Origin: a virus
Reading direction: 5' to 3' (one strand)
DNA length: 46,309 nucleotides
IMG/VR virus record: IMGVR_UViG_3300045988_136632
Below are positions 1-46,198 of the stretch, piece after piece; the stretch's first letter is position 1, and each line of letters starts with the position of its first letter. The notes beneath the pieces are model-generated. The model did not search any database. It was not told where the DNA came from and saw nothing but the letters and a program-made list of their open reading frames with translations. The translations under genes were made by a program, and so were the position numbers.

Positions 1-141
1 ATAGAGTCGGTAAGACCAAGAAGGAGATAACCAAAATGCACAAAAGAGATTTTCAATATAAATCTACCCAATTTTGGCAAAATCATAATACCCCAAAGTG
101 GATTTGCACTCATTTTCAAGCTTTAGAGTATAAAATGAATA
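1..141. repeat. terminal overlap copy 1 (identical to 46169-46309)
   Basis: Base-by-base reading shows that 1-141 equals 46169-46309. Confidence 0.95.
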
Positions 142-677
142 AACTTGAAGATTTTTATTTATTATGTAATTATCCGCTTGTTGATCCCAAATTAGAGTCC
201 ATTGGAATTACCAAAGATCATCTTTTCAGATACTTGTACGAAGATTTTTATATTATATTATTAAGTATTTCAGATATTATATCTAATATTTTGAATGATA
301 TATATAAATTAAACATAAAAAAAGAGTTGCAACATTTACCATATGTACTCAACGAATTAAGTCAAAAGCATATTATTGAAAAAAATCCTACATTGCATAC
401 TACATTAAAAGAATATAACTCTTTTTTAATTCATAATAAAGAAGAAAGAAATAACAACACTCATTATGGTAAATCCCGTAATAACGTACTTAGAAAAATA
501 GAGAATCCTAACGACACCGAAAAACTGCTTGACTATGTTCTTAAAAAAAGATATGACATAGATTTAAAAAGTATATTAAAACCAACTATTATAGAAAAAA
601 TGAATAGTCAAATCATAGAAACAGATAAATTTATAACTGAGATTTTTAATAATGTACAAACGAGATCATTCAGTTAA
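36..677 (+). CDS. hypothetical protein with a HEPN-like Rx4H motif (candidate abortive-infection RNase)
   Basis: The ATG lies 5 nt after the repressor stop, with AGGAG upstream. The product is 213 aa. R138-N-N-N-T-H143 (nt 447-464) fits the HEPN R-N-x-x-x-H signature. The gene is very AT-rich compared with the structural genes. Confidence 0.6.
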   Translation: MHKRDFQYKSTQFWQNHNTPKWICTHFQALEYKMNKLEDFYLLCNYPLVDPKLESIGITKDHLFRYLYEDFYIILLSISDIISNILNDIYKLNIKKELQHLPYVLNELSQKHIIEKNPTLHTTLKEYNSFLIHNKEERNNNTHYGKSRNNVLRKIENPNDTEKLLDYVLKKRYDIDLKSILKPTIIEKMNSQIIETDKFITEIFNNVQTRSFS

Positions 678-3218: not shown

Positions 3219-4397
3219 ATGACAACTCTCAAAATTGCCGTTGTTCCAGCTAAGATGCTGAAAAGCGGAAAACACAAAATCAGAATCGCAATTGGACACA
3301 AACAAGAAACAAGATACCTTGTTACCCGATTCACTATTGACAATTTATCTTATTTCAAAGACGGGCAAGTTGTAGGAACAGCAAATGCTTCGAGTATAAA
3401 TATGAAATTAAGGAATATCCTTAATTCATATCAAGAAGCACTCGACCGAATAAATACTCAATCATATACTTGTAAACAACTCATCGAATACTTGTCAACC
3501 GTTAAACAAGGTACTACAAGTTTTAATACTGCATCCAACGAATTCATAATCAATATGGAAAATGAAGGCAGAAAAAGCACAGCCGCACTATATCGTAGAA
3601 CCTGTAATTATTTTAATGAGTTTATAAAGTATGATATTATGTTAGATGGTATTACTCCACGTACCATAAAAGATTTCGACATCTACATGAATAAGGAAAG
3701 AAATCTAAATCCTGTCACAAGAGGGACACATATGGCTCATTTAAAGGCAATAATCAATCAAGCAATACGAGATAAAAAAGCGGCTTATGAAACACATCCT
3801 TTTGAATATTACGAAAAGCCGGCAGGAAGTGTACGAGAGCTTGATATCACCGTTGAAGAAGTAAAAATGATTAGAGATTCAACCCCAAAAGAAAAATCTC
3901 TAAGAATGGCTCGTGATCTCTTTATGCTATCCTATTATCTTGGAGGTATTAATCTCATAGACCTCATGCAATTTAATTTTAAAAACAAGGATACAATTGA
4001 ATACATACGAGAAAAATCTAAGAACACTAAAAAAGGTGATAAAAAAGTAAGTCTTACTATACCGGACGAAGCAAAACCGATTATCAAAGAATGGATCAGT
4101 AAAAGTGGGAAACTTAACTTTGGGTATAAATACACATATGATAATTTCAGAAAGTATGTCACAAAAGAAATAGGGCGCCTTGCCGAAAAAATAGGTATCG
4201 AATCACACGTAGTATACTATTCAGCACGAAAGAGCTTTGTACAACACGGTTTCGAGCTTGGAATAAATCTTGAAACATTAGAATATTGTATCGGTCAAAG
4301 CATGAAAATGAATCGTCCTATTTTTAATTATGTAAAGATAATGCGAAAACACGCTGATCAAGCTATTAGAAAAATACTTGATAATCTGAAAAAATAA
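3219..4397 (+). CDS. int: tyrosine-type site-specific integrase
   Basis: 392 aa, adjacent to the tRNA-fragment attP. The N-terminal arm-binding-like region, the C-terminal YYSARKSFVQHG and the NY near the end are typical of Bacteroidota phage and CTn integrases. Confidence 0.8.
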   Translation: MTTLKIAVVPAKMLKSGKHKIRIAIGHKQETRYLVTRFTIDNLSYFKDGQVVGTANASSINMKLRNILNSYQEALDRINTQSYTCKQLIEYLSTVKQGTTSFNTASNEFIINMENEGRKSTAALYRRTCNYFNEFIKYDIMLDGITPRTIKDFDIYMNKERNLNPVTRGTHMAHLKAIINQAIRDKKAAYETHPFEYYEKPAGSVRELDITVEEVKMIRDSTPKEKSLRMARDLFMLSYYLGGINLIDLMQFNFKNKDTIEYIREKSKNTKKGDKKVSLTIPDEAKPIIKEWISKSGKLNFGYKYTYDNFRKYVTKEIGRLAEKIGIESHVVYYSARKSFVQHGFELGINLETLEYCIGQSMKMNRPIFNYVKIMRKHADQAIRKILDNLKK

Positions 4398-37376: not shown

Positions 37377-38217
37377 ATTTTTGATTTAACCATTCTTGAT
37401 AATCACGTTCCGTACCCGTAAATACTACACCAGTCCAACCGGATTCAATTGCCCTTTCAATTTGTAGGATAGCAAACTCTTCTTCAAATTTTGAAAGTTT
37501 ATCTAACGATAGTTGCAAGGCATAATTGAGTTTCTTTTTCCATTTTGGAGTTTGGCGAAGTGCTTCCCACGCTGACATAAAAGCTATCGAAGTGAATGGA
37601 TATACTAAAGGCTTTTCATCCCCTTCTTTTTTCTTAGATTTTTTAGGCTTTGTAGGTGGGGTGCTCTCGTGCGTATGCGCGAGATTACTCTCTATGTTTA
37701 TAGTTTTAATATCTATAATAGGTGGGATTTGCATATCATCAGTACCATTTACCGATGATATTACCGATGAAGCGTTTTTATCATCAGTATTTTCATCAGT
37801 ACGTAGTACCGAAGATATTACCGTATTGTTTACCGATGATTGACATTCCTCTGCTGATATATCATCAGTATTTTCTTCGGTATTTTCATCAGTACCATTT
37901 ACCGATGATATTACCGATGATTTCATGTCATTATCGAGAATAGGTAAGAAAGAATAGTAACATCCTATTCGTTTATCCCGACATGATTTAAAGAATATCA
38001 AACCGGCATCAGCGAGAGCTTTGCGAGACTTACGCAATGTTTTATCCCAGATATTCAAAGAAGTGCATAAAACTGCGCTACGAGCTTCAAATACTTCTTT
38101 CCAACCTTTTTCATTACAAATAGATATCAACTCATAGTAGAGAGCTTGATCTATTGCCGTAAGATAAGTATCATCCCTAACCTTTCTAAGTTTTGATATT
38201 AGTTGATAACTGTTCAT
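37252..38217 (-). CDS. replication initiator-like protein (N-terminal winged-helix-like domain, Ser/Asp-rich linker, C-terminal domain)
   Basis: 321 aa. An iteron-like 9-mer array is embedded in the linker-coding part, which parallels the lambda O/ori arrangement. Confidence 0.55.
   Translation of the reverse strand: MNSYQLISKLRKVRDDTYLTAIDQALYYELISICNEKGWKEVFEARSAVLCTSLNIWDKTLRKSRKALADAGLIFFKSCRDKRIGCYYSFLPILDNDMKSSVISSVNGTDENTEENTDDISAEECQSSVNNTVISSVLRTDENTDDKNASSVISSVNGTDDMQIPPIIDIKTINIESNLAHTHESTPPTKPKKSKKKEGDEKPLVYPFTSIAFMSAWEALRQTPKWKKKLNYALQLSLDKLSKFEEEFAILQIERAIESGWTGVVFTGTERDYQEWLNQKYGNNRKSGNSKYEANVYAMQQYIAERQRREQGLVNEVEKPF
37736..37920. repeat. iteron-like array (candidate origin of replication)
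   Basis: TCATCAGTA at 37736, 37781, 37793, 37862 and 37886. TACCGATGA at 37750, 37762, 37831, 37900 and 37912. These are the same 9-mer family in opposite orientation with 1 mismatch. A 35-bp perfect direct repeat lies at 37736-37770 and 37886-37920. Confidence 0.6.
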
Positions 38218-38507
38218 AATCTAAAATATCTATTTGCAGTACATTCATCAAAGGATTTTACACGTTCAATAAGCCGTTTCTGTCGTTGTCTGAATGCTAA
38301 ATTATTATCATACTTATTGTGACATTCTCGACATAATCCGACGATATTAAGAGGATTTGTGTAATGTTCCGGATACATGCTCTTTGAAACCAAATGAGCG
38401 GCATCTGACATGGGTTTACCACAAATTGCACAATAGGGTGGTAATGCCTTCTTTATATTAGCCACATCCCTATTTCGTTTAGCCTGTTTATTACTTACCT
38501 GTCTCAT
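38214..38507 (-). CDS. small HNH/zinc-finger nuclease-like protein
   Basis: 97 aa with CAICGK...H...N...CRECHNKYDNN. Confidence 0.6.
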   Translation of the reverse strand: MRQVSNKQAKRNRDVANIKKALPPYCAICGKPMSDAAHLVSKSMYPEHYTNPLNIVGLCRECHNKYDNNLAFRQRQKRLIERVKSFDECTANRYFRL

Positions 38508-38532
38508 ATATAATATTTAAATGTCCACTAAT

Positions 38533-38561
38533 TAAAAGCCCCGAAGCGTATTCTCCGGGGC
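38533..38561 (-). terminator. rho-independent terminator (reverse strand) at the 3' end of the GC-rich noncoding island
   Basis: Reverse strand GCCCCGGA, a loop, TTCGGGGC, then TTTTAAT. It lies only about 26 nt upstream of ATG 38507. Confidence 0.65.
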
Positions 38562-38925
38562 ACAACCATTATTCACATTGATGTGTGGCTCACATTTATG
38601 CGGTGGTAGCAGGACTTGCACCTGCACGATAGGAGTTTCACTTAGTTTTATTGCCGTTGGTGTAGTTTCGCCAACCCATACATTGTCTTTTTCATTTTAC
38701 ACGGGACTCCTGTTCATTTCCGTCAATCTTTCAATTGCACTCTGTCACATGTCCGACTACCCGCAACCTATCTATAAGTATGTCTCAGCTTTAGCGTCTC
38801 TCATTGTTCCGCCATACCACCATGTTCGCCAACTCTATCTTCACAGACCGAGCAGGCAGGCTAACAAAGTAGTTCCCGGATAAACAATCAAGCTACACCG
38901 GGAGTAATTAATAAAATTAAAAATC
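38562..38925 (-). ncRNA. candidate structured RNA with a tRNA-like acceptor/T-arm module (class unknown)
   Basis: No credible ORF is present. GC is about 46% by hand count, against a much more AT-rich flank. On the reverse strand, GGTGGTA (38821-38815) pairs with TACCACC (38608-38602). That strand is immediately preceded by GCAGG-TGCAAGT-CCTGC (38625-38609), which gives tRNA T-arm geometry. Further helices are AGGAGT/ACTCCT and GTTGG/CCAAC. Confidence 0.35.
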
Positions 38926-38982
38926 TAAGACCGGGGCACTCTCCCGACGGTGTCCTTTTCACCGGCATTTTTTTGTTAATAA

Positions 38983-39252
38983 TTAAATTGATTTATTGTG
39001 TATTTTTGCATGGCAATCCTCACAAAGAGTAACAAGACAATCCAAATGGGATAATTCATTGCCCACAATAGATATACCGCTCACTTTATAAGTTTTATGA
39101 TGAACTTCAAGAGAATAGGATTTTCCACACATTTGGCAACGATGCCCGTCACGGATACGAACCTTTCTTTTTACTTCTTCCCAATATGGGTTATTCCTCA
39201 GACTCTTCCGATAATTCGACGGCCTCCCCTTCTTGTGTGCCAATCTCGTCAT
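38983..39252 (-). CDS. HNH endonuclease
   Basis: DGHRCQMCGK...LEVHH...N...LCEDCHAKIH is a classic HNH motif. ATG 39252 is preceded by AAGGAGGAAACCA. The track start at 39285 is TTG. Confidence 0.75.
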   Translation of the reverse strand: MTRLAHKKGRPSNYRKSLRNNPYWEEVKRKVRIRDGHRCQMCGKSYSLEVHHKTYKVSGISIVGNELSHLDCLVTLCEDCHAKIHNKSI

Positions 39253-40060
39253 TGGTTTCCTCCTTTCTCCACGGACTTTTTTCAATTGCTACTCTATGCC
39301 ATTCATGACGTTGTATAGGAATTACCTCCCCATTATCCTCATCCAGAAAATCTTCGATCCAATTTTCTAACCAAACATCCATACCATCTTCTTCCCATAC
39401 TTCTACCACATCTTCACCCTTACCGAACTTGCGTAGATTTTTACGGGTATCTTTTACATCAATATTTGGTAACTCATAGCCAAGTGACTTAAATGCTTCT
39501 TGATTCTTTTCGCCAGAATTGAAAAGGTCATTGTATTCATGCTTCGGAATTTCCTGAACCAATGCCAAACGGAATGCATCATTTACCCATGAATAATACA
39601 GATAATATCCCATAACAGGAATACGGAAGGTATCGATCATCTTAAGAGGATAATCCTTAATTCCTTTCTTCGCAAGATTTACCAAATCTTTAAATTGAGT
39701 ATGCAAGGAGGTTATTTTAGCTTCATACTCTTTTTTAGCAGCATTAAATTCGGATTTTAAAGCTTCCAATTGACTCTCTAATTCCGGCATCTGTTCCTCG
39801 GCAATCTCACCATAATTTGCACGAATGATAGATATTTCATAATCATCCATCACACGGTTAGCAATTACATCTTTTTCTTGAATGGTTACGAAGTGTTCTG
39901 AAAGCTTCTTCTTTACATCGTCCATACAGACACAATCAGAAAAAATAATCTCTGGAAATTTCACTGTTGACGGAAGTTTGAAAGTTATCTCTTCCGGTTC
40001 ATAATCTTTTAAATCAATCATTGTTTTATGGGTTTTAATAAATTCCCAAAGAAGAAACAT
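39191..40060 (-). CDS. hypothetical recombination-module protein with an acidic C-terminus
   Basis: 289 aa (alternative ATG at 40021). It has a central coiled coil, and its 3' end overlaps the HNH gene by 62 nt. Confidence 0.55.
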   Translation of the reverse strand: MFLLWEFIKTHKTMIDLKDYEPEEITFKLPSTVKFPEIIFSDCVCMDDVKKKLSEHFVTIQEKDVIANRVMDDYEISIIRANYGEIAEEQMPELESQLEALKSEFNAAKKEYEAKITSLHTQFKDLVNLAKKGIKDYPLKMIDTFRIPVMGYYLYYSWVNDAFRLALVQEIPKHEYNDLFNSGEKNQEAFKSLGYELPNIDVKDTRKNLRKFGKGEDVVEVWEEDGMDVWLENWIEDFLDEDNGEVIPIQRHEWHRVAIEKSPWRKEETNDEIGTQEGEAVELSEESEE

Positions 40061-44034: not shown

Positions 44035-44438
44035 AATATTTATTTTAGTTTATATATAATGTGCCCTGCCCGATTCTCACTACCGGATGCCAGTTACAAG
44101 CTGTCAACAGGACTTATAAAGCAAATACCACGATTTGCCGACCTTAGTCTAACTGTTTATTTTTACAACGATGCCTGTTTGACCCTTACAGCAGCATACA
44201 TCGTTGTCAAGTTATGACTACTTTACATCGTCAGATTTCGTCAGAGGATAACTTGAAAACCTCAATTTTCCATTATGTCAAAGATCGAATTAACATAGTG
44301 CCTGTAGAAGATATTCTCTACGCCCCTACAGGCTAAATGACTTTTAAAATTTCCCCGGCTGGTATCCCTTGCTATCAGCGCTGAACATCGCAGGAGCCTT
44401 ATGCCGGATTACAGGACTACCTTTTTGGAAATCTTAAT
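44035..44438 (-). ncRNA. candidate structured RNA or long regulatory leader (class unknown)
   Basis: A 404-nt stretch with no ORF of 60 aa or more on either strand. GC is about 46% in the first 100 nt by hand count. Several 6-8 bp helices are present, including CAACGATG/CATCGTTG, CCTGTAG/CTACAGG and GCAAAT/ATTTGC. Confidence 0.3.
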
Positions 44439-45490: not shown

Positions 45491-46198
45491 ATGGAAGCTT
45501 GGGAAAGAATAGAATTTATTATTGAAAGAGAAGGGATGAATAAGAATTCATTCAGTAATGCTATTGGCATTTCTAATAATGTGACTATAACAAGAATCAT
45601 TAATGAACATCGTACTCCTTCACGAGCTACATGTGAAAAGATAGTTAGTGCATTTCCTTCTTATAATCTTCAATGGGTACTTACTGGAGAAGGTGAAATG
45701 CTCAATAATTCGAATCCTGTACCAAAGTACAATGAAGCCGTACCCATTCAACAAGATGTAGTATATATTCCTCTTGTCAACCAATTCGCATATGCCGGAT
45801 ATCTTGATGGATATTCAGATTGCACCTATTTAGAACAGCTTCCTAAAGTTCCTTTTATTGTAGATCATGAAGGACATGGAAATTATATCGCTTTCGAAGT
45901 AAAGGGGGACAGCATGAACAACGGAACCGAAGAAAGCTATTTAGAAGGTGATAGACTGTACTGTCGTGAAATACAACCTCACCTTTGGGCTACATCTAAA
46001 TTACATCTCCGGAAATGGGATTTTGTGATAGTACATGAAGATGGAATTGTAGTAAAACGAATTATAGATCACGATGTAGAGAACCACACTATTACAATAC
46101 ATTCTTTGAATGATATGTATCCAGATCGAGTTATTGATTTGTGCGATGTTAAACAGATATTTAATGTCATAGAGTCGGTAAGACCAAGAAGGAGATAA
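45491..46198 (+). CDS. CI/LexA-like repressor (N-terminal HTH plus C-terminal S24 autopeptidase)
   Basis: The N-terminal Cro/C1-type HTH is NSFSNAIGISNNVTITRIINEHRTP. The C-terminus has VKGDSMNNG (catalytic Ser) and IVVKRI (Lys). Confidence 0.85.
   Translation: MEAWERIEFIIEREGMNKNSFSNAIGISNNVTITRIINEHRTPSRATCEKIVSAFPSYNLQWVLTGEGEMLNNSNPVPKYNEAVPIQQDVVYIPLVNQFAYAGYLDGYSDCTYLEQLPKVPFIVDHEGHGNYIAFEVKGDSMNNGTEESYLEGDRLYCREIQPHLWATSKLHLRKWDFVIVHEDGIVVKRIIDHDVENHTITIHSLNDMYPDRVIDLCDVKQIFNVIESVRPRRR

What the first reader, a model, noticed from the sequence alone, without database searches (positions are those of the whole stretch)
38562..38925. GC-enriched ORF-free island with a tRNA-like acceptor/T-arm module, sandwiched between two small HNH genes
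About 360-470 nt have no credible coding potential. The only ORF (38578-38883, +) has an implausible composition and lies on the wrong strand. GC is about 46% by hand count inside a much more AT-rich operon, which is the classic signature of structured RNA in AT-rich genomes.

On the reverse strand, GGTGGTA (38821-38815) is perfectly complementary to TACCACC (38608-38602). That 3' strand is directly preceded by a 5-bp stem and 7-nt loop, GCAGG-TGCAAGT-CCTGC. The geometry is exactly that of a tRNA T-arm with acceptor stem, including the G53:C61-type closing pair and C56/A58-equivalent loop bases. There is no canonical D or anticodon arm; instead about 190 nt of further helices (AGGAGT/ACTCCT enclosing GTTGG/CCAAC) replace them. 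The element ends in a strong reverse-strand terminator (38533-38561) only about 26 nt before the next gene. It is flanked by HNH nuclease genes on both sides (38983-39252 and 38214-38507).

Possible roles are a tRNA-mimic decoy against anticodon nucleases, an HNH-associated guide or mobility RNA, or a cis-acting antitermination leader for the replication genes. I cannot match it to a known RNA class.
Basis: partly seen in the sequence, partly recalled or inferred. Interest (0 to 1): 0.65.

Follow-up and report, generated by a model that had tools for sequence, protein, structure and literature searches.

The report
Non-decoding tRNA-like RNA gene in Bacteroides prophage
The ORF-free island is a real RNA gene from a Bacteroides prophage: it keeps the acceptor stem, D-arm and T-arm of a tRNA but has no usable anticodon arm and carries a large extra domain, and it belongs to a widespread family in gut phages that I could not find described anywhere and whose function is unknown.

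Summary
On the minus strand, 38821-38601 folds as a tRNA-like core: a 7-bp acceptor stem, a 3-bp D-stem and a 5-bp T-stem with a 7-nt loop. A degenerate hairpin sits at the anticodon position, and an arm of about 145 nt sits at the variable-arm position. A GNRA-capped leader hairpin precedes the core; a conserved trailer and an intrinsic terminator follow it.

The 20-nt trailer motif occurs in at least 119 IMG/VR contigs and in several Bacteroides genomes. It follows a T-arm plus acceptor strand in 116 of 119 readable loci, and these take about 20 different sequences. In 29 distinct sequences the acceptor and T stems are 98.9% paired, and 9 of 12 pairs show compensatory changes.

Relatives with canonical D- and T-loops pass Rfam's tRNA threshold. 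None reads as a normal decoding tRNA: anticodon loops are 6, 8 or 11 nt long, or the arm is replaced by a structured insert. Scaffolds and inserts recombine independently of each other.

The flanking HNH genes are incidental (5 of 100 and 3 of 117 loci).

Best reading: a tRNA-derived mimic or scaffold RNA, probably matured by tRNA-processing enzymes. I found no matching Rfam family and no paper describing it.

The parts
38865..38871 (-). Near-match (TACTTTG) to the Bacteroides -7 promoter box TAnnTTTG, just upstream of the leader hairpin
   Evidence: Read. Of 31 distinct upstream sequences in related loci, 17 carry an exact TAnnTTTG, and 11 of those at one fixed distance from the hairpin. The promoter consensus itself is from memory. 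That this is a promoter is an inference.
38828..38857 (-). Leader hairpin: 8-bp lower stem (one U-U mismatch in this copy), a GG/UA internal loop, UCU/AGA upper stem, and a GUGA (GNRA) tetraloop
   Evidence: The lower stem varies with G-U and compensatory changes and is 92.5% paired. The tetraloop is GUGA, GCGA or GUAA across relatives. The same apical motif is widespread in Bacteroidales phage contigs.
38815..38821 (-). Acceptor stem, 5' strand: GGTGGTA
   Evidence: In 29 distinct relatives, pairs 3:70 to 7:66 each take three or four standard pair types, and all seven acceptor pairs show only one non-standard cell (at 2:71).
38794..38812 (-). D-arm: stem GCG/CGC, with a 13-nt loop (GAACAATGAGAGA) that lacks the canonical G18 G19
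   Evidence: The stem covaries (GTG/CAC, ACG/CGT). Close relatives carry the loop AATTGGTAGA, typical of class II tRNA-Leu (recalled from memory).
38773..38793 (-). Degenerate hairpin at the anticodon-arm position: UAAAG / UUAUA with an A-A mismatch and an 11-nt loop
   Evidence: Loop length and sequence differ among close relatives (11, 8, 8 nt). ARAGORN finds no tRNA under any of 1,236 single contiguous deletions.
38628..38772 (-). Long inserted arm at the variable-arm position, closed by GATAGG/CCTATC. It contains the GTTGG/CCAAC hairpin (38675-38656).
   Evidence: The closing helix is conserved in sequence in the L053, L022 and L093 types, but the interior differs. There is no complementarity to the rest of the window beyond chance.
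38609..38625 (-). T-arm: GCAGG-TGCAAGT-CCTGC. G53:C61, C56 and A58 are kept; position 55 is G instead of U.
   Evidence: T-stem pairs 49:65 to 52:62 covary, and G53:C61 is invariant in 29 of 29. In the table the TGCAAGT loop occurs only with D-loops that lack GG.
38601..38608 (-). Acceptor stem, 3' strand TACCACC, plus the discriminator (G here; A or T in near-identical siblings). No CCA is encoded.
38562..38600 (-). Conserved 3' trailer: CATAAATGTGAGCCACACAT with hairpin ATGTG-AGCCA-CACAT (38595-38581), then TGAATAATGGTTGTG. This copy lacks about 11 nt (GCAAGGGTTAG) that are present in the family consensus.
38530..38561 (-). Intrinsic terminator GCCCCGGAG-AATACG-CTTCGGGGC followed by a T-run. 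It is conserved nearly base for base across the family.
38930..38948 (-). Terminator-like hairpin downstream of the upstream HNH gene, which would isolate the RNA gene as its own transcription unit
   Evidence: consensus scan only.
38983..39285 (-). Upstream small HNH endonuclease gene. It is not part of the RNA element; it is probably a free-standing homing-type insertion.
38214..38507 (-). Downstream small HNH endonuclease gene. It is not part of the RNA element.

Best explanation
This is a phage-borne RNA gene derived from a tRNA, most likely a class II, tRNA-Leu-like ancestor, that no longer decodes.

Shown:
- Its acceptor stem, D-stem and T-arm are kept by compensatory evolution across a large family in Bacteroides temperate phages.
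- The anticodon arm is degenerate or replaced.
- A large domain is inserted.
- The tRNA-like scaffolds and the inserted domains are shuffled independently between phages.
- The HNH genes next to it in this window are not a conserved part of the system.

Inferred mechanism:
- The gene is transcribed as a short unit of its own, from a Bacteroides-type promoter box to the intrinsic terminator.
- Because the acceptor and T-arm minihelix and the D/T elbow are intact, host RNase P cuts off the GNRA-capped leader at 38822/38821. The 3' trailer is then removed and CCA is added.
- The result is a stable, tRNA-shaped RNA that cannot read codons.
- It then acts as a tRNA mimic or a natural 'tRNA scaffold'. 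The tRNA-like chassis gives processing, stability and recognition by factors that bind the acceptor stem or elbow. The variable inserted domain is the specific effector, binding or titrating a host or phage factor.
- What that target is remains unknown.
For: Family size: the trailer 20-mer hits at least 119 IMG/VR contigs and prophages in Bacteroides genomes, including B. salyersiae DSM 18765, which carries this exact variant.

Diversity: in 116 of the 119 loci that could be read, the motif follows a T-arm plus acceptor 3' strand. There are about 20 different T-arm and acceptor sequences, with the partner 5' strand 61-220 nt upstream for all but two of them, and about 250 nt in one long-insert variant.

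Covariation:
- 95.8% of cells are paired, against 78.4% in shuffles (0 of 500 shuffles reach the observed value).
- The acceptor plus T helix is 98.9% paired, and 9 of 12 pairs show changes on both sides.
- Slid controls are about 50% paired.
- G-U pairs are frequent, so the constraint is on this strand as RNA.

tRNA ancestry: relatives with the same acceptor and D-arm but canonical loops pass Rfam RF00005 (threshold 29 bits): L171 36.5, L282 36.3, L273 39.2 and L283 45.6 bits.

Loss of decoding:
- ARAGORN finds no tRNA in the window.
- It finds none after any single deletion.
- It finds none in 19 metagenome contigs that carry the canonical-loop version of this minihelix.
- Members without an insert still have 6- or 8-nt loops at the anticodon position.

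Modularity: one scaffold carries at least 7 unrelated inserts. One insert type sits in three different scaffolds, and its own helices covary, with 12 of 44 pairs compensatory.

Own transcription unit: there is a terminator downstream and a terminator-like hairpin upstream, plus a promoter-box-like motif.
Against: - There is no expression or processing data of any kind.
- This particular copy is the most deviant in its group. Its T-loop has G55, its D-loop has no GG, its trailer has an 11-nt deletion, and the discriminator differs (G, A or T) between near-identical siblings. It could therefore be a decaying copy.
- Its own variant is known only from near-identical sequences, so the helices inside its insert have no covariation support of their own.
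- Leader and trailer are more conserved in sequence than the tRNA-like body. That could mean the flanks, not the body, are the functional part.
- The 5' acceptor strand was located by requiring at least 6 of 7 pairs within a 14-nt search range, which inflates the acceptor counts slightly. It nevertheless falls at one fixed position after the conserved leader, without gaps.
- No target for the insert was found.
Confidence: 0.6

Rival explanations
1. The tRNA-like fold is only a processing handle. RNase P and a 3' endonuclease cut at it to release the conserved leader hairpin and/or the conserved 3' trailer with its terminator. Those released pieces are the functional small RNAs, as with the 3' external transcribed spacer of the E. 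coli leuZ tRNA transcript. Alternatively the cuts punctuate the early polycistronic transcript.
For: Leader and trailer are almost invariant in sequence, while the body takes about 20 forms. Any tRNA shape would serve as a handle, which would explain why the body is free to vary.
Against: - tRNA-like bodies of the same types also occur with quite different trailers that run straight into the next gene, and without the leader hairpin (L022, L093, L276). The body is therefore the common denominator.
- The inserts have their own covarying structure.
- The window's trailer carries an 11-nt deletion.
- No complementary target for the leader or trailer was found in the window.
Confidence: 0.17
2. 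It is a decaying phage tRNA gene with no function of its own: a pseudogene with insertions, carried along between conserved regulatory sequences at a recombination hotspot.
For: - This copy has non-canonical D- and T-loops, an 11-nt anticodon-position loop, a variable discriminator and a deleted trailer.
- The L002 type has a weakened acceptor stem.
- Flanking genes are mosaic.
Against: - Decay would not preserve pairing through double changes in 9 of 12 acceptor and T pairs, nor in the D-stem and the insert helices.
- The change in the T-loop (U55 to G) occurs only together with loss of GG in the D-loop. That looks like co-adaptation of the elbow, not random decay.
- The family is abundant, and up to 4 minihelices of this geometry occur in a single related locus of 15 kb or less.
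Confidence: 0.1
3. It is a real decoding tRNA whose insert is an intron, or an expansion that processing removes or the ribosome tolerates. An unusual anticodon loop might then let it evade host anticodon nucleases.
For: - Relatives pass the Rfam tRNA threshold.
- ARAGORN in intron mode calls a tRNA-Lys(CUU) with an 80-nt insert in the L001 type.
- Phage tRNAs with altered anticodon loops that escape nucleases are known (from memory).
Against: - No deletion of a single contiguous segment turns the window copy into a detectable tRNA.
- The anticodon-position hairpin has a mismatched stem and an 11-nt loop.
- The inserts of about 50-170 nt are too short for group I introns, and Rfam finds no intron.
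- Members without inserts still have 6- or 8-nt loops.
- The putative anticodon is not conserved among close relatives.
Confidence: 0.06
4. It acts in cis on transcription. The GNRA-capped leader hairpin, the tRNA-like fold and the terminator together form a regulated termination or antitermination switch ahead of the replication and late genes, in the manner of lambda nutR/tR1.
For: - The element lies in the early operon on the same strand as all lytic genes, with a strong terminator about 25 nt before the next gene.
- The hairpin loop is GNRA-like, as boxB is (from memory).
- The apical hairpin motif often forms terminator-like hairpins elsewhere.
Against: - Nothing in such a switch needs a tRNA shape.
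- The downstream genes differ between phages.
- Some members lack the leader hairpin or the terminator.
- No candidate antiterminator protein was identified.
Confidence: 0.05
5. It works as DNA: an attachment or recombination site derived from a tRNA gene, a homing-endonuclease target, or a replication origin next to the initiator gene.
For: - Phage attachment sites often contain the 3' half of a tRNA gene.
- The element lies at a mosaic junction with HNH genes, next to the replication initiator in this window.
Against: - Both acceptor strands and both T-stem strands covary, with many G-U pairs that would be A-C mismatches on the other strand.
- The integrase lies 34 kb away.
- The neighbouring genes are not conserved.
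Confidence: 0.02

Closest known systems
Canonical tRNA (Rfam RF00005), specifically class II tRNA-Leu-like genes carried by phages
   Same: - 7-bp acceptor stem, 3-bp D-stem, and a 5-bp T-stem with a 7-nt loop, G53:C61, C56 and A58.
- Close relatives carry the D-loop AATTGGTAGA and the T-loop TTCGAAT and pass the Rfam threshold.
- It lies in an accessory early region, and in this window free-standing endonuclease genes flank it, as in the T4 and T5 tRNA clusters (PMC2330249).
   Different: - No 5-bp anticodon stem and no 7-nt anticodon loop.
- A 145-nt arm is inserted.
- The window copy gets no RF00005 hit even at E <= 10, and ARAGORN finds nothing.
tmRNA (SsrA)
   Same: The termini form an acceptor stem stacked on a T-arm. 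The anticodon arm is replaced by a large structured insertion. No CCA is encoded in many species (from memory).
   Different: - ARAGORN's tmRNA search is negative, and Rfam's tmRNA models give no hit.
- The window copy has U3:A70, not G3:U70.
- No resume codon and no tag reading frame.
- The insert is much smaller and is not conserved.
- One sister group (the L083 type) does have G3:U70 with A73.
Engineered 'tRNA scaffold' for expressing recombinant RNA (Ponchon and Dardel; from memory)
   Same: A foreign structured RNA is grafted into a tRNA body in place of the anticodon or variable arm, so that the cell processes and stabilises it like a tRNA. Here one scaffold carries at least 7 inserts and one insert sits in 3 scaffolds.
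   Different: That is a laboratory design, not a natural family. Processing and stability of the phage RNAs have not been tested.
Phage P1/P7 C4 antisense RNA and the phage T4 stable RNAs 'species 1 and 2' (from memory)
   Same: These are phage-encoded small non-coding RNAs whose precursors mimic tRNA enough to be matured by RNase P. The T4 RNAs lie in the tRNA cluster and still have no known function.
   Different: No sequence or covariance-model relation was tested or found. C4 has a defined antisense target, whereas no target was found here.
Bacterial Y RNA (YrlA), and eukaryotic or viral tRNA-like ncRNAs (mascRNA, gammaherpesvirus 68 tRNA-like RNAs)
   Same: Non-decoding RNAs that keep the tRNA elbow and an acceptor-like stem and are handled by tRNA enzymes.
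   Different: In YrlA the termini lie at the end that corresponds to the anticodon stem and the acceptor is closed by a loop, which is the opposite topology. Rfam gives no hit. No Rsr/Ro gene was found among the 37 window proteins scanned.
HDV-like theta ribozymes next to tRNAs in gut phages (PMC10879173)
   Same: A conserved RNA element immediately 3' of a tRNA-type gene in gut Caudoviricetes.
   Different: The trailer cannot form the nested P1/P1.1/P2/P3/P4 fold when inspected by hand: no strand complementary to P1 follows a P3 hairpin. Rfam's HDV-type models give no hit.

Membership tests
tRNA (RF00005) | Score at or above the curated covariance-model threshold (29 bits) | tested here: not met
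   The window copy gives no RF00005 match even at E <= 10 in a 701-nt search. Relatives with the same acceptor and D-arm score 36.3-45.6 bits.
tRNA (RF00005) | 7-bp acceptor stem stacked on a 5-bp T-stem, with a 7-nt T-loop closed by G53:C61 | tested here: met
   The pairs covary across 29 distinct relatives and are 98.9% paired.
tRNA (RF00005) | D-arm with G18 G19 contacting U55 C56 of the T-loop | tested here: inconclusive
   The D-stem is present and covaries. The window copy has no GG in the D-loop and has G55 in the T-loop. In the table the two deviations occur only together, which suggests an altered but maintained elbow. This cannot be verified without a structure.
tRNA (RF00005) | 5-bp anticodon stem and a 7-nt loop with U33 and a three-base anticodon | tested here: not met
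   The hairpin at 38793-38773 has an A-A mismatch, a G-U pair and an 11-nt loop. ARAGORN is negative for the native sequence and for 1,236 single-deletion derivatives.
tRNA (RF00005) | Aminoacylation and decoding on the ribosome | not testable with these tools
   Needs acid-gel or tRNA-seq charging assays.
tmRNA | Detection by ARAGORN or the Rfam tmRNA models; G3:U70; a tag reading frame with a resume codon | tested here: not met
   Searches are negative. Pair 3:70 is U:A. There is no conserved ORF in the insert, which differs entirely between relatives.
Group I intron in a tRNA gene | Intron of 200 nt or more with a P3-P9 core, inserted in the anticodon loop, leaving a canonical tRNA after removal | tested here: not met
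   Rfam gives no intron hit. The extra sequence is about 50-170 nt across the family. No single deletion restores a tRNA.
HDV-like / theta ribozyme | Nested double-pseudoknot fold starting at the cleavage site just 3' of the tRNA | tested here: not met
   Rfam gives no hit. Hand inspection of the conserved trailer finds no P1 partner in the required position.
HNH-associated guide RNAs (HEARO / IscB omega-RNA) | Obligate adjacency to a large IscB-type HNH/RuvC protein, and a match to the Rfam HEARO model | tested here: not met
   The neighbours are HNH-only proteins of 97 and 100 aa. They are present in only 5 of 100 and 3 of 117 related loci. Rfam gives no hit.
YrlA / bacterial Y RNA | Termini in a Ro-binding stem, a tRNA-like domain closed at the acceptor end, and an rsr gene nearby | tested here: not met
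   The termini here are at the acceptor stem. Rfam gives no hit. No Ro/Rsr-like protein was found among the 37 window proteins scanned.

The most novel reading that the evidence does not exclude
Bacteroides temperate phages carry a modular, previously undescribed class of 'tRNA-chassis' RNAs. A tRNA-shaped scaffold that has been deliberately made unable to decode is used by the phage to mature and stabilise interchangeable structured RNA domains. Those RNAs act in trans in the conflict between phage and host. One possibility is that they are decoys or inhibitors for host factors that recognise the tRNA acceptor end or elbow, such as the nucleotidyltransferase toxins of the MenT/AbiE type that modify tRNA acceptor ends (PMC7450476). 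The shuffling of scaffolds and inserts would then reflect an arms race.
Probability: 0.25. Interest if true: 0.85.

Novelty: new variant of a known kind. Interest (0 to 1): 0.68.

Why it matters
Phage tRNA genes are usually explained by codon usage or by escape from anticodon nucleases. This is different. A large family in phages of a dominant human gut genus keeps the tRNA shape by compensatory evolution while the anticodon arm is systematically disabled or replaced, and structured inserts are swapped between scaffolds. The family comprises at least 119 viral contigs plus several Bacteroides genomes, with up to four minihelices of this geometry in a single related locus.

If these RNAs are expressed and processed as predicted, they are a natural counterpart of the engineered tRNA scaffold and a new class of phage non-coding RNA. 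A testable role would be the manipulation of host machinery that recognises tRNA.

There is also a practical point. tRNA finders and Rfam miss most of these genes, so they currently sit in phage genomes as unannotated 'intergenic' sequence.

Tried and rejected
- ARAGORN, standard and intron modes, on the window and its relatives: nothing in the window. Relatives give only forced 'tRNA-???' or intron calls.
- Rfam at the curated threshold and at permissive E-values on the region: only chance-level hits. One is a 13-bit PreQ1-like match at 38636-38679 (threshold 39 bits), which I take to be chance.
- Exhaustive single-deletion 'intron removal' followed by ARAGORN: no tRNA for the window copy. 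The calls in L001, L068 and L005 have mismatched anticodon stems or irregular loops.
- HDV-like or theta ribozyme in the trailer: rejected by hand and by Rfam.
- Hammerhead or kink-turn readings of the leader loop: they do not fit. It reads as a 3-bp stem with a GNRA tetraloop.
- Long-range pairing between leader and trailer: RNAalifold on chimeric constructs was uninformative. A hand-found 10-bp pairing involves a segment that is deleted in the window copy, so it was not pursued.
- Complementarity of the insert, leader or trailer to the rest of the prophage (template-repeat or antisense roles): the longest matches are 11-12 nt, which equals what shuffled sequence gives.
- Search for a host tRNA with the same 3' half, to test for recent capture: all 19 metagenome hits are phage-type elements and none is a canonical tRNA.
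- HNH linkage: rejected by the census of neighbouring genes.
- Literature searches for a described Bacteroides-phage tRNA-like RNA: nothing relevant was found. The library is incomplete, so this does not prove the family is undescribed.
Full report
**What is at the site**

On the minus strand the interval between the two small HNH genes reads, 5' to 3', as follows:
- a terminator-like hairpin behind the upstream HNH gene (38948-38930);
- a near-match to the Bacteroides -7 promoter box (TACTTTG, 38871-38865);
- a leader hairpin (38857-38828), whose top is UCU-GUGA-AGA, that is, a GNRA tetraloop;
- a tRNA-like body (38821-38601);
- a trailer (38600-38562);
- a strong intrinsic terminator (38561-38538 plus a T-run).

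The body has these parts:
- a 7-bp acceptor stem, GGTGGTA/TACCACC;
- U8 and G9;
- a 3-bp D-stem, GCG/CGC, with a 13-nt loop;
- a poor hairpin at the anticodon-arm position (UAAAG/UUAUA with an 11-nt loop);
- a 145-nt arm closed by GATAGG/CCTATC at the variable-arm position;
- a T-arm, GCAGG-TGCAAGT-CCTGC;
- a discriminator, G.

A pattern scan for this minihelix geometry finds only this site in the window, against 0.05 expected per shuffled window. GC content is 43.1% over 38562-38925 and 45.7% over the body, against 36.0% for the window. ARAGORN and Rfam report nothing here. The plus-strand ORF 38578-38883 has no Pfam match.

**It is one member of a large family**

Two unannotated 'Bacteriophage sp.' records from human faeces share the flanks but differ in the middle. 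In 116 of the 119 loci that could be read, it is preceded by a T-arm plus a 7-nt acceptor strand. These take about 20 different sequences, most with a canonical TTCGA T-loop. A complementary 5' strand lies 61-220 nt upstream for all but two of them, and about 250 nt upstream in one long-insert variant.

The same frame occurs in prophages of Bacteroides sp. KFT8, Bacteroides sp. f07, B. muris and B. salyersiae DSM 18765. The last carries the window's exact variant.

**Covariation**

On an alignment of 29 distinct leader + acceptor + T-arm constructs (A2), I named a structure and counted pairs:
- 95.8% of cells are standard pairs, against 78.4% in shuffles; 0 of 500 shuffles reach the observed value.
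- Sliding the partners by 1 to 3 columns gives about 50% paired.
- The acceptor plus T helix is 98.9% paired, and 9 of 12 pairs show changes on both sides.
- G53:C61 and G1:C72 are invariant; G2:C71 is kept in 28 of 29.
- The lower stem of the leader hairpin is 92.5% paired, mostly through G-U and one-sided changes.
- The leader tetraloop varies only within GNRA (GUGA, GCGA, GUAA).
- The many G-U pairs place the constraint on the minus-strand RNA, not on DNA.

One caveat applies. I located the 5' acceptor strand by requiring at least 6 of 7 pairs within a 14-nt search range. It nevertheless always falls directly after the conserved leader, and the alignment has no gaps there.

The D-stem also covaries: GCG/CGC becomes GTG/CAC in L022 and ACG/CGT in the L002 type.

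**Relation to tRNA**

Relatives that share the window's acceptor and D-arm but have the canonical D-loop AATTGGTAGA and T-loop TTCGAAT pass Rfam's tRNA threshold of 29 bits. L171 scores 36.5, L282 36.3, L273 39.2 and L283 45.6 bits. In each case the model skips a long insertion at the anticodon or variable region. From memory, the D-arm TGGCGGAATTGGTAGACGC is that of bacterial class II tRNA-Leu.

The window copy deviates further. Its T-loop has G at position 55 and its D-loop has no GG. In the table the TGCAAGT loop occurs only with D-loops that lack GG, and homologues that keep GG (L171, L093) have canonical TTCGA loops. This suggests a co-adapted elbow, but that is an inference.

None of these genes looks able to decode:
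- ARAGORN finds no tRNA in the window.
- It finds none after any of 1,236 single contiguous deletions.
- It finds none in the 19 metagenome contigs that contain the canonical-loop version of this very minihelix.
- Members with no insert still have 6-nt or 8-nt loops at the anticodon position: L283, L269 and the L182 type.
- Among the window's closest divergent relatives, the loop at that position is 11, 8 and 8 nt long and different in sequence.

This pattern argues against both an intron-containing tRNA and random decay.

**Modularity**

The scaffold GGTGGTATGGCGGAATTGGTAGACGC...GCAGGTTCGAATCCTGCTACCACCA carries at least seven unrelated inserts, besides the window, L053 and L005 types. Conversely, one insert type, beginning AATCAAGATGTGAGG, sits in three scaffolds with different acceptor and T stems. 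Its own helices covary: 12 of 44 predicted pairs have compensatory changes. Inserts are therefore structured modules, not junk.

The window's own insert is known only from near-identical copies, so its internal helices remain predictions. The GTTGG/CCAAC hairpin has a CTTGG/CCAAG counterpart.

The insert, leader and trailer show no complementarity to the rest of the prophage beyond chance.

**Context**

The window is a nearly complete temperate, siphovirus-like Bacteroides prophage. Its main features are:
- a CI-like repressor (45491-46198, plus strand);
- an early operon on the minus strand, with an exonuclease VIII-like gene, the RNA, and an O/DnaD-like replication initiator;
- terminase, portal, tape-measure and tail-fibre genes;
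- an integrase (3219-4397).

In related loci the genes on either side of the RNA belong to at least 16 downstream and 18 upstream families. The downstream families include DUF3268, VRR-NUC, NinG, RusA and DNA methyltransferases, which is a nin-region-like accessory zone. Window-type HNH genes flank the RNA in only 5 of 100 downstream and 3 of 117 upstream positions.

I therefore read the HNH genes as free-standing homing-type insertions next to a conserved sequence. This is known from the tRNA regions of T4 (SegB) and T5 (F-TflI, F-TflII and F-TflIV) (PMC2330249). They are not partners of the RNA.

**The frame**

The leader hairpin's apical motif, CGGUCUG(Y)GAAGAUAG, is common in Bacteroidales phage contigs. 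Of 65 distinct contexts, 36 have a flanking stem of at least 5 bp. Of those, 28 are followed by a T-run, so they look like terminators. Many precede other odd tRNA-like genes.

Some family members lack the leader hairpin (L022, L093, L276) or have different trailers that run into the next gene. The tRNA-like body is thus the common denominator, which weakens the idea that only the flanks matter. Other related loci hold up to four minihelices of this geometry within 15 kb or less, some of them in tandem, as in L171 and L269.

**Interpretation**

Shown:
- This is an RNA-level, strand-specific, conserved structure derived from a tRNA, and it is widespread.
- It is non-decoding by every available sequence criterion.
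- It is modular.
- It is not linked to HNH genes.

Inferred:
- It has its own promoter.
- It is matured by RNase P, a 3' processing activity and CCA addition.
- It works as a tRNA mimic or as a natural tRNA scaffold that presents a variable effector domain.

The target and the biological role are unknown. A decoy for factors that read the acceptor stem or elbow is plausible but untested. A decoy for anticodon nucleases fits poorly.

The alternatives are ranked in the rivals section: processing handle for leader or trailer RNAs, decaying pseudogene, true tRNA with an intron, cis-acting termination switch, and DNA site.

**Comparison with known systems**

In architecture it most resembles a tRNA with its anticodon arm disabled and an enlarged variable arm. 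That makes it like tmRNA in topology and like the engineered tRNA scaffold in logic. It fails the membership tests for tRNA (covariance score, anticodon arm), tmRNA, group I intron-containing tRNA, the HDV-like theta ribozyme (PMC10879173), HEARO/omega-RNA and YrlA.

I found no Rfam family and no paper that describes it. Neither source is complete.

Noticed in passing
window 44063-44113 (-): The only Rfam hit in the window at the curated threshold is a DUF2693-FD RNA (RF02926, 55.8 bits), in the early operon upstream of the tRNA-like gene. A related locus (L278 1447-1495) has one too, at 77.9 bits. The two RNA genes therefore occur together in at least two of these phages.
   Followed up: partly
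window 36-677 (+): Protein with a Cthe_2314-like HEPN domain (PF18730, E = 3.7e-7), on the far side of the integrase from the phage genes. It may be host DNA or prophage cargo. HEPN proteins are often RNases, some of which cut tRNA. Any link to the tRNA-like RNA is pure speculation.
   Followed up: no
L177-L268 (viral contigs); window 38828-38857: The apical motif of the leader hairpin, CGGUCUG(Y)GAAGAUAG (internal loop plus a 3-bp stem plus a GNRA tetraloop), recurs widely in Bacteroidales phage contigs on variable lower stems. It is usually followed by a T-run like a terminator, and often precedes other non-canonical tRNA-like genes. Why terminator-like hairpins should share a conserved top is unexplained.
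   Followed up: partly
L283 4859-4961 (-); L038, L182, L171 and L176: In several unrelated subfamilies the loop at the anticodon position, or a separate hairpin before the trailer, contains the self-complementary hexamer UGCGCA (ARAGORN calls the 'anticodon' tgcg). A palindromic loop could mediate kissing-loop dimerisation or be a protein-binding site. The window copy does not have it.
   Followed up: no
L083/L003 group: The second-largest subfamily has the acceptor GGGGGTG/CATCTCC with G3:U70 and discriminator A73. From memory, this is the identity set of alanyl-tRNA synthetase, which tmRNA shares. One variant (L108) has A3:U70 instead.
   Followed up: no
window 38577/38576 (-): Compared with the family consensus and with the otherwise identical B. 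salyersiae copy (L173), the window's trailer lacks about 11 nt (GCAAGTGTTAG), between short repeats of AATG/TG.
   Followed up: partly
window 38874-38975 (-); L148 and L215: The segment between the upstream HNH gene and the promoter box is homologous to sequence that follows a different tRNA-like gene in L148 and L215. It reads GCCGGTGAAAAGGACACCGTCGGG...CCCCGG and includes a hairpin TCCCGG/CCGGGA at 38903-38874. It may be a shared terminator or regulatory module of these RNA loci.
   Followed up: no
L269, L171, L176, L280: Some related phages carry tandem arrays of two or three tRNA-like genes separated by short spacers, and related loci of 15 kb or less hold up to four minihelices of this geometry. 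In L171 and L176 an extra module of about 90 nt lies between the last tRNA-like gene and the conserved trailer.
   Followed up: partly
window 38797-38809 and 38614-38620 (-); Across the family, the T-loop TGCAAGT (G55) occurs only with D-loops lacking G18 G19. The T-loop TTGGAAT (G56) also goes with a D region that lacks GG but contains CC. This is possible covariation of the tertiary elbow pairs 18:55 and 19:56.
   Followed up: partly
window 38636-38679 (-): Weak resemblance to the PreQ1-I riboswitch aptamer: a stem-loop ending in CUACA, followed by the tail AAUAAAACUAAG. The score is 13 bits against a threshold of 39 (E = 9.7). I treat it as chance, and the segment is not conserved in relatives.
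   Followed up: partly
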